21,898 nucleotides of DNA, taken from the IMG/VR virus record IMGVR_UViG_2671180524_000011. One strand, given 5' to 3'. This stretch comes from a virus. Its lineage: Duplodnaviria; Heunggongvirae; Uroviricota; Caudoviricetes. The first letter of the stretch is position 1; each line of letters opens with the position of its first letter. This document shows, piece after piece, positions 6,001 through 9,000 of this stretch. The position numbers were made by a program.

Positions 6001-9000
6001 TGGCGGACGCTGGGCTGAGTTCCATACGGCAAGGCGGGGATTTATCCGGCTGGGAAAACGACTGGGCTTTGAGCGAATGCCGGATGATGAGGATGGCTTC
6101 ATGGTGTTCAGGATAGCGGTCTGACTGCTACAGTTTTCATCATTGTGTTTAAACCAACATTGTAATTCACATTCTGACCCTGCTCCGGCAGGGTTTTTTG
6201 TTATCCAGGGGGCCATTATGGGTGGAAGTAAAGGCGGTGGTGATACCAAAGTAAAACCAACAGCAGCGCAAATAGCACAGGAAGAAGTGGCCTGGAAAGG
6301 GTGGCAGGATTACAAAAATATCCTCCGCCCGGCTGAAGATAACTTCATGGAAAAGGTCGATGACCTGAACAGTGAGCAGCAGTACGACAATATTGCTGGC
6401 ACCACAAATCTGGGGTATCAGAAACAGTTTGGCGAAGCACGGAAGGAGCTTGCGGGTAATCTTGCTCAGTCCGGCGTTGACCCATCCAGTGGTCGTTTTA
6501 ATGCGGTAATGAATGCGAACCAGAGTGACCAGGTAACCGGGCAGATTGACACAACCACACGGGGGCAGGTATCGCAGGCAGATAAGTATGTTGCCGGGCT
6601 ACAGGATGTTGCTGCTCTCGGTTCTGGTCAGAAGGCGGATGCGTTACAGAGTTTTAACTCTCTGGCAGACAGCAGTCTGGCAAAAGCTAAATCGGATGCA
6701 CAGGCGGCGTTTACGAAACAGCAGGGGCGAGCCTCTCTTGTTGGCGCTGGTCTGGGTGCGGCAGGTGCATATGCGATGCATAAGGCTGGCGGTAGCGGAG
6801 GAAGTGGCGGTGCTAAAACACCTGGCACCGGCGCTAATGCCATTCAGCATCAGGCTCAGAACTGGAGACTGTAATTATGGAGTATGGCAAATACGAAACT
6901 CTCGCAAGGGCTGGTTATTCAGGAGCAGACCGCCCACAGGGTGACTGGCAGACGTCAGCAGCGCTGACACGCCAACAATACGACGACTGGCGAACCAGAT
7001 ATTTGCCCCGCGTGGCAAGGCTGGCTGACCTTGGGGAGAACAACAGTCTGATGAATGCACAGCTTGCACGGGTGGGAGGCCTTGCCACTTCCAGTCTCCG
7101 TACAGCGCAGATGGCGCAGGATAACCAGATGGCGAGATACGGGGTAAACCGCCCGGATAATCCCGACAGTAATACGCTGGGGTTACGTAATGCCCTGGCA
7201 ATTGCTGGCGCGAAAAATGGTATCCGTGAAGCCGAACAGGATCGCCAGATGAATATTCTGACGGGGGCTTCTGCACCGGCAAGACAGAAACTGAGTGTTG
7301 GCGGCCAACTGGTGGCAGCGTAAGGGGGCAATATGGGATACGGTTTACTGGATATTGCAAATCAGTCGCGGCGTGAGGCATTACAGGGAATAAGTGACGC
7401 AGACAGACGACGTGAAGAAATTGAGGCTGCGAACAAACAGATGGCGGCGCAACAGAAAGCGCAGAACAAGCAGAATATCGGTACGGGCATTGGTACGGGG
7501 GCGGCTATTGGCGCATCCGTTGGTGGTCCTGTTGGTGCTGTTGCTGGAGCAGTAATTGGCGGCATTGCTGGTTCTTTGTTTTAAGGAGTGGTGAATGAGC
7601 GGATTTGCACAGGGGTTACTTGCCGGATTCAGCACCGTTGACCAGGCAATGACCCGTCGTAAGGAGCTTGGTCTGCGTGAAGCACAGCTTGCCCGGCAAC
7701 AGAAAAATAACGAGCGCGATTTTGAGTTTGCGCAGTCTCAGTTTGAACATAATAAAAACGTTGATCAGCGGAACTTTGATTACAGAGCCAAAGTTGACGA
7801 CCGTAATTATGCACTGAAGGAGAGGGAGTTTAACGCTAACCAGAATTACCGGAATGCGTCACTGGGTATGGAGCAGCAGCGACTCCAGTTGCAGAAATAC
7901 AACCAGCGACGGCTTGAGTATAACGATATGATTGCCCATAGCCAGCCACTAATGGAAGCGCTTGGAAAAGCAATTGAGGCTGGCGATCAGGAGGCTGCAA
8001 CGCGTCTGTTCGGGCAGCTGCCAAAGGGACATCCATTAATTCTTATGTCAAACGAAGGCTATGCAGCGAAAGCGGGTCAGGCCGTGATCAACCTGCAAAA
8101 AATCTTTGGTGATAAGCCGGACATGGCGATCGATTCGCTGAATACCCCGGAAAATCTCGATGTGCTTTCCGGCGTGTTTGCCCCGGAACTACAACAGCGT
8201 ATTGGCATGCCTGATTCAACCGGGGACAAAACGATAAAAGAGGCCAGGATTGGCAGTATCGTACCAGCGCAGCAGGAAGGGTACGTACTTATTGGCCTTG
8301 ATCTCACATACAGCGATGGCTCCACCGCGCATAAACCTGTAACAGAATACGGCAGTGCGCACCCTGATGATCAAACCGTGCTGGCGATACCCGTTGATAA
8401 GGCTATCGCTCAGGTCAGGGATCGCAGCAAATTTGCAGAGATATCGAAAAATTATGGTTATTTTATGCCGAAGCAGCAGGGACTTTCTCTGAAAGAGCTT
8501 CAGAAGGGGGCCAGCAACGTAGCGGCGGACGCGATCAAGAATGGCGGTAATGCTCAGGCTGCGGTGGATGAATATTATGCTGCGACTGGTTCACAACCGC
8601 ATCAACAGAAAATTCAGCAACAAAAACTTCAGCAACAGGTTATCAACTGGGCGGGAGATGATCCTGACAAGCTGTCATTTGCCAGAAATGTAGCGGCCCG
8701 TCAGCCTGAAATGCTGGAACCTCAGAATCAGAAATTGCTGGAGAACGGGTATGCGAATTTTCTCCGTATTCAAAAGGCCAGGGGGGAACAGGCCAGAGAT
8801 GAAAGTGCTTCATCTGCATCTCAGTTTATCCGTGGACTGAAACAGAATTACGCCCAGTAATTCACGATATTCCATTAATACCATTTCCTGATGCCCGGCC
8901 ATTGTGCCGGGTTTTTTTATGGAGTCTGTATGGCCTATTCAGAGGAACAGCGTCCTGAGGCGCAACTCGGTAACCAGAATCGTAACAGCCTGAACATTCA

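What the first reader, a model, noticed from the sequence alone, without database searches (positions are those of the whole stretch)
6178..8930. Four-gene small-protein operon bracketed by intrinsic terminators, one of them right before the giant gene
Genes of 219, 148, 83 and 421 aa are packed within 3-11 nt of each other between strong terminators at 6178-6199 and 8894-8918. Two carry glycine-zipper hydrophobic tails, which suggests membrane-inserting ejection or channel proteins. The second terminator ends 12 nt before the giant gene's start, which looks like attenuation that would lower giant-protein expression relative to the upstream proteins.
Basis: inference. Interest (0 to 1): 0.55.

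Follow-up and report, generated by a model that had tools for sequence, protein, structure and literature searches.

The report
Stx phage ejection-protein gene cassette
These four small genes of Shiga-toxin phage 933W encode proteins that are packed inside the virus particle and probably help build its DNA-delivery channel with the neighbouring giant protein. Both hairpin terminators are real, and one recurs in front of the giant gene in distant relatives, but the genes belong to the phage's long late transcript and are not a separate operon.

Summary
The window is the late region of Stx2 phage 933W/Sp5 (100% identity). Genes of 218, 148, 83 and 421 aa lie 2, 9 and 10 nt apart, between hairpin+T-run terminators at 6176-6199 and 8893-8918. 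The second ends 11 nt before the giant gene's ATG at 8930.

These are Sp5 ORF76-79, upstream of ORF80 (2793 aa). Published deletions show ORF79 and ORF80 are essential after DNA packaging, and ORF76 matters for infection. Published virion mass spectrometry of phi24B detects all four plus the giant, and none appears in the cryo-EM map. New here: the 83-aa protein shares the C-terminal motif of P22 ejection protein gp7, which in P22 lies in the outer membrane. The cassette order is conserved in prophages of Enterobacterales and Aeromonas and in phages of Aeromonas and Vibrio.

No promoter follows either terminator, so essential genes need read-through. In 933W that comes from Q antitermination. 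The pre-giant terminator recurs in 19 of 20 relatives with unrelated hairpin sequences. I read it as a gate against non-antiterminated transcription. Attenuation during lytic growth remains possible but untested. The 421-aa protein has no known fold relative.

The parts
5723..6124 (+). ORF75 (133 aa, PHROG 610). This gene sits just upstream of the cassette and is conserved there in most relatives. It was dispensable in Sp5 and was not reported in the phi24B virion proteome.
5825..5858 (+). Terminator-like hairpin plus T-run inside the ORF75 coding sequence ('Ti'). It is conserved at the same codon position in relatives, with compensatory stem changes that also change the encoded amino acids.
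6176..6199 (+). T1: intrinsic-terminator-type hairpin (8 bp, loop TCCG) plus T6, 18 nt before the first gene. It is conserved in Sepvirinae, but in most distant relatives the two flanking genes abut and it is absent.
6218..6874 (+). 218-aa protein (Sp5 ORF76/ECs1238; phi24B gp51). Found in virions at about 27 copies by MS. Its deletion strongly reduces lysogenisation and infection. It is Ala/Gln/Gly-rich with a conserved short Gly/Ala segment near the C-terminus.
6877..7323 (+). 148-aa protein (Sp5 ORF77; phi24B gp50). Found in virions at about 44-48 copies by MS. Dispensable in Sp5.
7333..7584 (+). 83-aa protein (Sp5 ORF78; phi24B gp49; annotated 'bacteriocin'). It has an N-terminal polar helix and a C-terminal double glycine zipper ending in GSLF, matching the C-terminus of P22 gp7. 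MS signal in virions is low. Dispensable in Sp5.
7595..8860 (+). 421-aa protein (Sp5 ORF79/ECs1241; phi24B gp48). Essential. Found in virions at about 37 copies. The AF2 model shows one helix of about 125 residues, a small beta domain and a helical C-terminal domain. No fold relative is known.
8893..8918 (+). T2: intrinsic-terminator-type hairpin (7 bp) plus T7, immediately upstream of the giant gene's SD and ATG. Its position is conserved in distant relatives while the hairpin sequence is not.
8930..17311 (+). Giant 2793-aa polyvalent protein (Sp5 ORF80; phi24B gp47) with LPD5, LPD1, MuF_C and LPD38 domains. Essential. Found in virions at about 23 copies and not resolved by cryo-EM.

Best explanation
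The region is the internal-virion (ejection) protein cassette of the short-tailed Stx phage 933W/Sp5.

The proteins. The four small proteins and the giant polyvalent protein are made late and packaged into the particle at a few tens of copies each. On infection they are expelled ahead of or with the DNA to build or extend a conduit through the cell envelope. The 83-aa protein, and possibly the 218-aa protein, supplies a glycine-zipper helical hairpin that inserts into the outer membrane, as the C-terminus of P22 gp7 does. The long-helix 421-aa protein and the giant protein supply the essential parts.

Transcription. The block is not an autonomous operon. It has no promoter and is transcribed as part of the pR' late transcript. 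The polymerase on that transcript is made terminator-resistant by Q.

The terminators. T1 and T2 are genuine intrinsic-terminator elements that act on polymerases which are not antiterminated, for example those starting at the constitutively expressed lom moron just upstream. The cassette, and above all the 8.4-kb giant gene, therefore stays silent in the lysogen and is expressed only after induction. T2 may also cause a modest step-down in transcription, or protect the upstream mRNA's 3' end, during lytic growth.

What is shown: gene structure, both hairpins, their conservation, virion presence (phi24B), the deletion phenotypes (Sp5), and the match to the gp7 C-terminal motif.

What is inferred: ejection from the particle, membrane insertion, and how the terminators behave in vivo.
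For: Identity: the region is 100% identical to 933W and 100% to VT2-Sakai (Sp5).

Genetics (PMC5155283):
- In-frame deletions of ORF79 and ORF80 abolish plaques and lysogens.
- DNA is still packaged and heads look normal.
- Both deletions are complemented in trans.
- Deleting ORF76 strongly lowers lysogenisation.

Proteomics of purified phi24B virions (bioRxiv 10.64898/2026.04.10.717836):
- gp51: 82 PSM; gp50: 83; gp48: 179; gp47: 746; gp49: 6 (batch digest).
- Portal-normalised estimates are about 27, 44-48, 37 and 23 copies for gp51, gp50, gp48 and gp47.
- None of these proteins is in the cryo-EM model.

gp7 link:
- hhalign of the 83-aa family against the P22 gp7 family gives probability 93% and E = 2.4e-7. 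Both aligned segments sit at the extreme C-terminus and end in GSLF.
- Reversed and column-shuffled controls score no more than 25 with probability no more than 13%.
- In P22 this V-shaped C-terminus is embedded in the outer membrane (bioRxiv 10.64898/2026.09.03.749273).

Synteny: the order ~200 / ~127 / ~85 / ~450 aa / giant LPD protein recurs in Aeromonas phage phiARM81mr, Vibrio phage D80 and many prophages.

No promoter: only 18 nt and 11 nt separate the T-runs from the next ATG, and no promoter-like site was found there.

Terminator conservation:
- A strong hairpin+T-run ends 5-70 nt before the giant ATG in 19 of 20 prophage loci. Background probability is 2% per window, giving a binomial P of 2e-31.
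- At least seven unrelated hairpin sequences are involved.
- The hairpin stays next to the giant gene even where extra genes are inserted in the gap (L017, L018).

Lysogen data: in phi24B lysogens lom is expressed whether or not the prophage is induced, whereas the giant gene downstream is expressed only on induction (PMC3342100).

Late transcription in Stx phages depends on Q antitermination at pR'/tR' (PMC7547250).
Against: - Mondal et al. saw no tail-fibre antibody binding on the ORF79 and ORF80 deletion particles and classed both genes as 'tail formation'. P22 ejection-protein mutants make normal-looking tailed particles, so this does not fit a pure ejection role.
- ORF77 and ORF78 are dispensable in the laboratory.
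- The 83-aa protein gave only 6 PSM, and the phi24B authors called it a contaminant.
- No protein of the cassette other than the 83-aa tail shows detectable homology to P22, T7 or N4 ejection proteins.
- Fold searches with the 421-aa model found only generic long helices.
- No transcript 3'-end data could be examined, so termination and read-through at T1 and T2 are inferred.
- More distant relatives (L019, and the Pseudomonas locus L055) show no terminator before the giant gene. In L019 the giant gene overlaps the preceding gene.
- It is not known whether Vibrio phage D80, which also has the hairpin, uses antitermination at all.
Confidence: 0.6

Rival explanations
1. T2 is a partial terminator (attenuator) that works during lytic growth. 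A fixed fraction of late transcripts stops at 8918, so the giant protein is made in smaller amounts than the four upstream proteins. This would resemble T-phi after gene 10 in T7.
For: - The hairpin+T-run is a canonical terminator sitting 11 nt before the giant ATG, with no promoter after it.
- Its position before the giant gene is conserved in many relatives, including Vibrio phage D80, whose use of antitermination is unknown.
- The giant protein's estimated virion copy number (about 23) is lower than that of gp48 (about 37) and gp50 (about 44-48).
Against: - In 933W the late genes are read by Q-modified polymerase, which by established knowledge of lambdoid phages ignores intrinsic terminators over tens of kb (context).
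- The same transcript must already have passed tR', the lom terminator at 5317-5335, the intragenic hairpin and T1.
- The copy-number differences are within the 1- to 3-fold error the authors state. They also reflect assembly rather than expression.
- The giant gene is essential and is among the most abundant MS signals (746 PSM).
Confidence: 0.25
2. Tail-assembly model (Mondal et al.). The 421-aa and giant proteins are tail components or tail-assembly factors that act on the filled head. They are not internal proteins that are ejected.
For: ORF79 and ORF80 deletion particles package DNA and have normal heads but bind no anti-tail-fibre antibody. The genes lie downstream of the tail and fibre genes.
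Against: - The phi24B reconstruction accounts for portal, two adaptor rings, nozzle, lateral fibres and needle without gp47-gp51, although these are abundant by MS.
- About 23 copies of a 308-kDa protein cannot be hidden on a 22-nm tail.
- Tails were seen only occasionally even on wild-type Sp5 in negative stain, so the assay is weak.
- Loss of internal proteins could secondarily destabilise the tail or trigger premature release.
Confidence: 0.12
3. The T2 hairpin acts mainly after transcription. It could be a 3'-end barrier that protects the four upstream cistrons from exonucleases once the long giant-gene mRNA is being degraded. It could also be a 5' element of the giant gene whose U-tract, next to the SD, serves as a ribosome-loading site.
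For: - The hairpin keeps a nearly fixed distance (24-29 nt from stem end to ATG in the 19 genome-scan loci, 15-27 nt in most of the other relatives), with the T-run running straight into the SD, across unrelated hairpin sequences.
- It follows the giant gene rather than the 421-like gene when extra genes are inserted between them (L017, L018).
Against: - Every example has the full terminator signature: a GC-rich stem followed immediately by a T-run. Neither a stabiliser nor a standby site needs that signature.
- There is no experimental support.
- In L010 and L013 the hairpin lies 83-196 nt from the start.
Confidence: 0.15
4. The 83-aa gene is a class II bacteriocin-like moron, as annotated, and its peptides in virion preparations are contamination.
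For: PGAP names it 'bacteriocin'. Pfam Bacteriocin_IIc gives a weak hit, E = 8.8e-4 at 19.7 bits against a cut-off of 27.1. The phi24B authors filed it as a contaminant.
Against: - The Pfam hit is below threshold and covers only the glycine zipper.
- No NCBIfam model supports the name.
- The gene keeps a fixed place, 9-10 nt from its neighbours, in a virion-protein cassette conserved from Escherichia to Vibrio.
- Its C-terminus matches that of P22 gp7.
- No immunity or export genes were seen among the called genes of the fetched loci.
- An 83-residue protein with few tryptic peptides is expected to give few PSM.
Confidence: 0.04

Closest known systems
P22 ejection (E) proteins gp7, gp20 and gp16 (genes 14-7-20-16, downstream of the needle gene)
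   Same: - Both are clusters of late genes after the tail-needle or fibre genes.
- Their products are packaged at tens of copies. P22 injects about 12, 12 and 30 copies of gp7, gp16 and gp20.
- They are needed for infection but not for DNA packaging.
- The 83-aa protein's last 19 residues match the gp7 C-terminus, which forms the outer-membrane helices of the P22 channel.
   Different: - Beyond that tail there is no detectable homology. The 218-aa family against the gp7 N-terminus gives probability 5.5%, and the 421-aa family against gp20 gives 1%.
- Here the membrane hairpin is a separate 83-aa polypeptide that is dispensable in the laboratory.
- The cassette ends in a 2793-aa polyvalent protein instead of the 609-aa gp16.
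- The deletion particles appeared to lack tail fibres.
N4-type (Schitoviridae) ejection cassette gp50 (giant vRNAP), gp51 and gp52
   Same: A giant virion-packaged protein is encoded next to small, helical, membrane-active ejection proteins in one conserved cassette. These proteins are internal and are lost from empty particles (PMC13434306).
   Different: - The giant protein here carries LPD5, LPD1, MuF_C and LPD38 domains and not an RNA polymerase.
- It is present at about 23 estimated copies. N4 vRNAP is packaged at only a few copies per virion (my recollection, not checked here).
Lambdoid late-operon organisation: Q antitermination at pR'/tR', with morons (lom, bor) that carry their own promoters and terminators
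   Same: One long late transcript must cross intrinsic terminators. lom is expressed independently of induction, whereas downstream late genes need induction. T1 sits at the end of the lom/hok/ORF75 segment.
   Different: - T2 is not attached to a moron.
- It is a fixed feature in front of one particular virion gene across many genera.
- A further conserved hairpin lies inside the ORF75 coding sequence.
T7 T-phi, a partial terminator after the major capsid gene
   Same: A terminator inside a block of virion genes that has to be read through for essential downstream genes.
   Different: T7 uses its own polymerase and has no antitermination factor. Partial termination at T2 has not been measured.
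Large polyvalent proteins of phages and conjugative elements (Iyer et al. 2017; DarB-like)
   Same: The neighbouring giant gene has the diagnostic LPD5, LPD1 and LPD38 domains plus MuF_C, and is virion-packaged.
   Different: This describes the neighbour and not the four small genes. To my knowledge, a dedicated small-protein cassette and a conserved upstream terminator have not been described as part of that family.

Membership tests
P22 gp7 ejection protein (Pfam PF25688 P22_gp7) | Match to the family model above the Pfam gathering score | tested here: not met
   The 83-aa and 218-aa proteins have no PF25688 hit. One of 10 members of the 83-aa family hits at E = 0.0025.
P22 gp7 ejection protein (Pfam PF25688 P22_gp7) | C-terminal double glycine-zipper (V-shaped) hairpin at the extreme C-terminus, ending in GSLF, which inserts into the outer membrane | tested here: met
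   hhalign of A4 against A5 gives probability 93% and E = 2.4e-7 over 19 columns, at both C-termini. Controls reach no more than 13%.
P22 gp7 ejection protein (Pfam PF25688 P22_gp7) | N-terminal ~190-residue body that docks on the tail hub and forms the extracellular channel | tested here: not met
   The 83-aa protein is too short to contain it. The 218-aa family against the gp7 N-terminus gives hhalign probability 5.5% and 2.8%.
Podovirus internal/ejection proteins (functional class) | Present in purified virions but absent from the symmetric capsid and tail structure | tested here: met
   Taken from the literature on the close relative phi24B: gp48, gp50 and gp51 are detected clearly and gp49 weakly, and none is modelled. 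This has not been done for 933W itself.
Podovirus internal/ejection proteins (functional class) | Required for infectivity but not for head assembly or DNA packaging | tested here: inconclusive
   Sp5 deletions: met for ORF79 (421 aa) and ORF80, partly met for ORF76, not met for ORF77 and ORF78. The mutants also lacked tail-fibre antibody labelling.
Podovirus internal/ejection proteins (functional class) | Leave the particle on DNA ejection and assemble in the host envelope | not testable with these tools
   Needs proteomics of full versus emptied particles, or in-situ cryo-ET.
Intrinsic (Rho-independent) terminator | GC-rich stem-loop followed directly by a T-run, in an intergenic position after a stop codon | tested here: met
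   T1 and T2. Both are conserved in relatives.
Intrinsic (Rho-independent) terminator | RNA 3' ends at the T-run in vivo | not testable with these tools
   Term-seq for strain Sakai exists (GEO accession cited in PMC7547250) but could not be read here.
Autonomous operon (own promoter to own terminator) | A promoter between the upstream terminator and the first gene | tested here: not met
   Only 18 nt separate T1 from the ATG. There is no sigma-70-like site on the + strand in 5300-6218.
Class II bacteriocin (Pfam Bacteriocin_IIc; the PGAP product name) | Family model above threshold, a double-glycine leader, and linked immunity or export genes | tested here: not met
   19.7 bits against a cut-off of 27.1, covering the glycine zipper only. 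No supporting NCBIfam model. The neighbours are virion genes in every relative.
Large polyvalent protein (neighbouring giant gene) | LPD-type domains in a multi-kilobase virion protein | tested here: met
   LPD38 7.8e-48, LPD5 6.5e-45, LPD1 5.2e-24, MuF_C 1.3e-17.

The most novel reading that the evidence does not exclude
The cassette is a previously unrecognised type of podovirus ejectosome, widespread in prophages of Enterobacterales and Aeromonas and in phages of Aeromonas and Vibrio. In it, the outer-membrane-inserting gp7-like hairpin is a free-standing peptide of about 85 aa. A new-fold 421-aa long-helix protein and a giant polyvalent protein form the essential conduit and cargo. Expression of the whole module is gated by two anciently conserved terminator hairpins. 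One lies inside the coding sequence of the upstream ORF75-like gene and one lies immediately before the giant gene. Both make expression depend on antitermination, or on translation of ORF75.
Probability: 0.3. Interest if true: 0.65.

Novelty: new variant of a known kind. Interest (0 to 1): 0.45.

Why it matters
Short-tailed Stx phages spread Shiga toxin genes, yet how they get their DNA across the envelope after binding BamA is unknown.

This work assigns ORF76-79 and the giant protein to an ejection cassette. It also links the 83-aa protein to the outer-membrane part of the P22 channel. Together these give concrete, testable candidates for that step. They also correct a misleading 'bacteriocin' annotation and the dismissal of the 83-aa protein as a virion contaminant.

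The conserved terminator in front of the giant gene, and the hairpin inside ORF75, suggest that these phages take particular care to keep this module silent unless the late, antiterminated programme is running. That bears on prophage cost or toxicity and on how giant polyvalent proteins are controlled. Existing Term-seq data could test it directly.

Tried and rejected
- Sequence searches of the 421-, 218- and 148-aa proteins and their family profiles against PDB chains found nothing meaningful.
- The 83-aa profile's best PDB hit, crAss001 cargo protein gp45 at E = 0.005, covers only glycine-zipper composition.
- The AF2 model of the 421-aa protein (pLDDT 84.8) was searched three ways:
  - Foldseek against PDB: no hit at E <= 0.001.
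  - BFVD: only members of its own family.
- Pfam, PHROGs and NCBIfam give only 'unknown function' families. The one exception is a weak PHROG 'virion structural protein' hit for the 218-aa protein.
- hhalign of the 218-aa family against gp7, and of the 421-aa family against gp20, was not significant.
- Two apparent fusions were set aside:
  - P0137, an 83-like plus 421-like fusion, looks like a frameshifted assembly.
  - P0143, a 1386-aa protein with a 421-like N-terminus, has no similarity to the giant protein.
- A first search of 5.8 billion proteins returned only close E. coli relatives in its listed rows.
- A global alignment of the pre-giant hairpins across clades gave no common structure, because the sequences are unrelated.
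- Within the Aeromonas clade, covariation in T2-like hairpins is weak: one pair changed on both sides, and the result is not above the shuffles. The case for T2 therefore rests on conservation of position.
- Rfam finds nothing in 5300-9000.
- No supplementary Term-seq table was available.
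Full report
WHERE THE WINDOW COMES FROM. Positions 6100-9000 are 100% identical to Stx2 phage 933W. They match 186 phage records and 425 complete E. coli genomes at 80-100% identity. Window position equals 933W coordinate minus 40134. The genes are 933W L0130-L0134 and Sp5 (VT2-Sakai) ORF76-ORF79, followed by ORF80. The window is the distal end of the late region of a short-tailed lambdoid prophage (Sepvirinae).

THE OBSERVATION. The four ORFs are 6218-6874 (218 aa), 6877-7323 (148 aa), 7333-7584 (83 aa) and 7595-8860 (421 aa). The gaps are 2, 9 and 10 nt, and each gene has its own SD sequence.

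T1 has stem 6176-6183/6188-6195 and a T-run to 6199. T2 has stem 8893-8899/8906-8912 and a T-run at 8912-8918. Both are canonical hairpin+T-run sites. The hairpins alone fold at -14.5 and -13.1 kcal/mol. In about 50 nt of context they fold at -16.5 and -17.2, with z-scores of -3.5 and -2.8 against shuffles. They are among the strongest terminator-like sites in the region.

The giant gene starts at 8930 (GGAG at 8921-8924). The longer ORF that begins at 8891 inside the hairpin is an artefact of taking the first ATG. PGAP uses 8930, Sp5 ORF80 is 2793 aa, and PhiR12_3 and ArgO145 lack that upstream ATG.

In seven diverged Sepvirinae both hairpins are kept. T2 changes GCCCGGC/GCCGGGT to GCCCGAC/GTCGGGC, a compensatory G-C to A-T change, while the surrounding spacer diverges.

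WHAT THE PROTEINS ARE. No curated family names them. PHROGs 611, 596, 594 and 601 are all 'unknown function'. The only Pfam signal is a sub-threshold glycine zipper in the 83-aa protein.

(i) Mondal et al. 2016 (PMC5155283) made in-frame deletions in Sp5.
- Deletions of ORF79 and ORF80 give no plaques and no lysogens. DNA packaging is normal, heads look normal, and both are complemented in trans.
- Deletion of ORF76 still gives plaques but almost no lysogens.
- Deletions of ORF75, ORF77 and ORF78 are viable.

(ii) A 2026 preprint on phi24B (10.64898/2026.04.10.717836) reports LC-MS/MS of the cryo-EM sample.
- The homologues gp51, gp50, gp48 and gp47 are clearly present, at 82, 83, 179 and 746 PSM in the batch digest.
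- Portal-normalised estimates are about 27, 44-48, 37 and 23 copies.
- gp49, the 83-aa protein, gives 6 PSM. The authors set it aside as contamination only because of its 'bacteriocin' label.
- None of gp47-gp51 is in the reconstruction. That reconstruction accounts for the portal, two adaptor rings, the nozzle, the fibres and the needle.
- The authors propose that gp47 is an internal ejection protein and leave gp48, gp50 and gp51 unassigned.

NEW HOMOLOGY EVIDENCE. The 421-aa family is small: 66 representatives at E <= 1e-3 among 1.8 billion proteins. Gene neighbourhoods of distant members show the same order everywhere. An ORF75-like gene of about 120 aa is followed by genes of about 200, 127, 85 and 450 aa and then a giant LPD-domain gene.

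This order is seen in Aeromonas phage phiARM81mr, where the products are annotated as virion structural proteins, and in Vibrio phage D80. It is also seen in metagenomic contigs and in prophages of Citrobacter, Pectobacterium, Brenneria, Serratia, Yersinia, Edwardsiella, Aeromonas and others. All three small families align well across these phages.

The profile of the 83-aa family matches the P22 gp7 family over its last 19 residues. The motifs are GGPVGAxIGAxVGxLAGSLF-COOH and STPWGAxIGxGLGLLGSLF-COOH. hhalign gives probability 93% and E = 2.4e-7. Reversed or column-shuffled controls reach at most 13%.

In P22, in-situ cryo-EM shows that this V-shaped C-terminus supplies 24 of the 36 helices of the outer-membrane pore (10.64898/2026.09.03.749273).

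The rest of gp7, and gp20, show no significant similarity to the 218- and 421-aa families.

An AlphaFold model of the 421-aa protein (pLDDT 84.8) has one helix of about 125 residues, a small beta domain and a helical C-terminal domain. It has no specific match in the PDB or BFVD.

The cassette therefore works like the ejection cassettes of P22, T7 and N4 but is not a member of those families. The exception is the short gp7-like membrane tail.

THE TERMINATORS. No promoter can fit between T1 and the first ATG (18 nt) or between T2 and the giant ATG (11 nt), and none is predicted nearby. ORF79 and ORF80 are essential, so both terminators must be read through in lytic growth. The block is a stretch of the pR' late transcript and not an operon. 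In Stx phages that transcript depends on Q antitermination (the general property of Q-modified polymerase is textbook knowledge).

T1 is present in Sepvirinae and one other lineage. In most relatives the ORF75-like and 218-like genes are 2-18 nt apart.

T2 is different. A strong hairpin+T-run lies 15-29 nt before the giant gene's ATG in Sepvirinae, L012, L014, L017, L018, phiARM81mr and 19 of 20 prophage loci from the genome scan. In L015 and D80 it lies 48 and 83 nt upstream. The background chance per window is 2%, which gives a binomial P of 2e-31. The loci are not phylogenetically independent, but at least seven unrelated hairpin sequences occur.

Where homing-endonuclease-like or other genes have been inserted between the 421-like gene and the giant gene, the hairpin stays next to the giant gene. 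In L019 and the Pseudomonas locus L055 no hairpin is found, and in L019 the giant gene overlaps the preceding gene. For the Halomonas and Halioglobus loci the giant gene's start could not be placed reliably.

Riley et al. 2012 found that in phi24B lysogens lom is expressed whether or not the prophage is induced. The giant gene, downstream on the same strand, is induction-dependent. This is what terminators acting only on non-antiterminated polymerase would produce.

My preferred reading is that T1 and T2 insulate the cassette, and especially the giant gene, in the lysogen. A modest attenuating or mRNA-stabilising effect in lytic growth is not excluded. The roughly 1.2- to 2-fold lower virion copy number of the giant protein is within the error of the estimate. 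No transcript data could be examined.

WEAK POINTS.
- The Sp5 mutants lacked tail-fibre labelling, which the authors read as a tail-assembly defect. Tails were hard to see even on wild-type particles.
- Two of the four genes are dispensable.
- Virion presence is shown for phi24B and not for 933W itself.
- Ejection and membrane insertion are inferred.

VERDICT. The sequence observation is right. The 'ejection/channel protein' idea is well supported and is now tied to a specific structural element of P22 gp7. 'Operon' is wrong. 'Attenuation' is unproven, and in this phage it is probably secondary to an insulating role.

The genes and their phenotypes are already in the literature. Three things are new here: the gp7 link, the breadth of the conserved cassette, and the position-conserved terminator before the giant gene, together with a conserved hairpin inside ORF75. 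Interest is moderate.

Noticed in passing
window 5825-5858 (+), inside ORF75 (5723-6124): A terminator-like hairpin (GACGCCTGCC..GCAGGCGTT plus TTTGTTTTG, -15.2 kcal/mol) lies inside the coding sequence. It recurs at the same codon position in ORF75-like genes of about 29 relatives. In Aeromonas two stem pairs change on both sides, and this also changes the encoded residues (Cys to Ile, Gln to Val). On an ungapped alignment 98.5% of cells pair, against 31-57% for slid controls, and the covariation score exceeds all 500 shuffles. Its function is unknown. It could be a translation-sensitive terminator guarding the cassette.
   Followed up: partly
L006 about 3250-4500 (Stx2a phage Stx2_4151 and many LC6160xx records); equivalent to about window 7835: An IS3-family element of about 1.26 kb (HTH_Tnp_1 plus rve ORFs) interrupts the 421-aa gene after about residue 81 in a group of Stx2a phages. 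Sp5 ORF79 is essential, so these prophages should be unable to make infectious particles.
   Followed up: partly
window 8891 versus 8930: The GenBank/RefSeq 933W record starts the giant CDS at the ATG inside the T2 hairpin (record 49025). PGAP on the chromosome, and Sp5, use the SD-preceded ATG at 8930. Relatives lack the upstream ATG.
   Followed up: yes
L011 12801-14660 (Aeromonas phage phiARM81mr): The annotated giant gene (p69) starts about 1.7 kb too late. The open frame, with a GAGGA SD and an ATG at 12933, begins right after a -22 kcal/mol terminator hairpin. The protein is therefore about 3760 aa, and the 1.86-kb 'gap' is coding.
   Followed up: partly
gap between the 421-like and giant genes in L013, L017, L018 and several Aeromonas loci; between the 83-like and 421-like genes in L010: This junction is a hotspot for inserted accessory genes. 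Examples are a T5orf172/GIY-YIG-like gene, a Rap1a-like gene plus another ORF on the opposite strand, a 53-aa ORF, and an HNH endonuclease in Vibrio phage D80.
   Followed up: no
L023 (metagenomic contig, 6.3 kb): A 579-aa relative of the 421-aa protein sits next to a 61-aa protein that hits Pfam P22_gp7 and Gly-zipper_YMGG. The surrounding genes are DUF927 primase-like and AlpA genes, which looks more like a satellite or island than a phage late region.
   Followed up: no
window 5526-5666 (+) and 18532-18706 (-): There are two hok/sok-type modules. One is a Hok/Gef ORF between lom and ORF75, called by PGAP but not in the 933W record, with flanking minus-strand hairpins at 5675-5698. The other is the annotated hokW/sokW downstream of the giant gene (Rfam sok, 113 bits).
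   Followed up: no
window 21364-21452 (-): Rfam sRNA-Xcc1 matches at 69 bits, just inside the prophage's right end (attR core at about 21530).
   Followed up: no
window 6877-6950: The 933W 148-aa protein carries an N-terminal extension and an 8-residue insertion relative to most of its relatives, which start MGYAS...DTYA.
   Followed up: no
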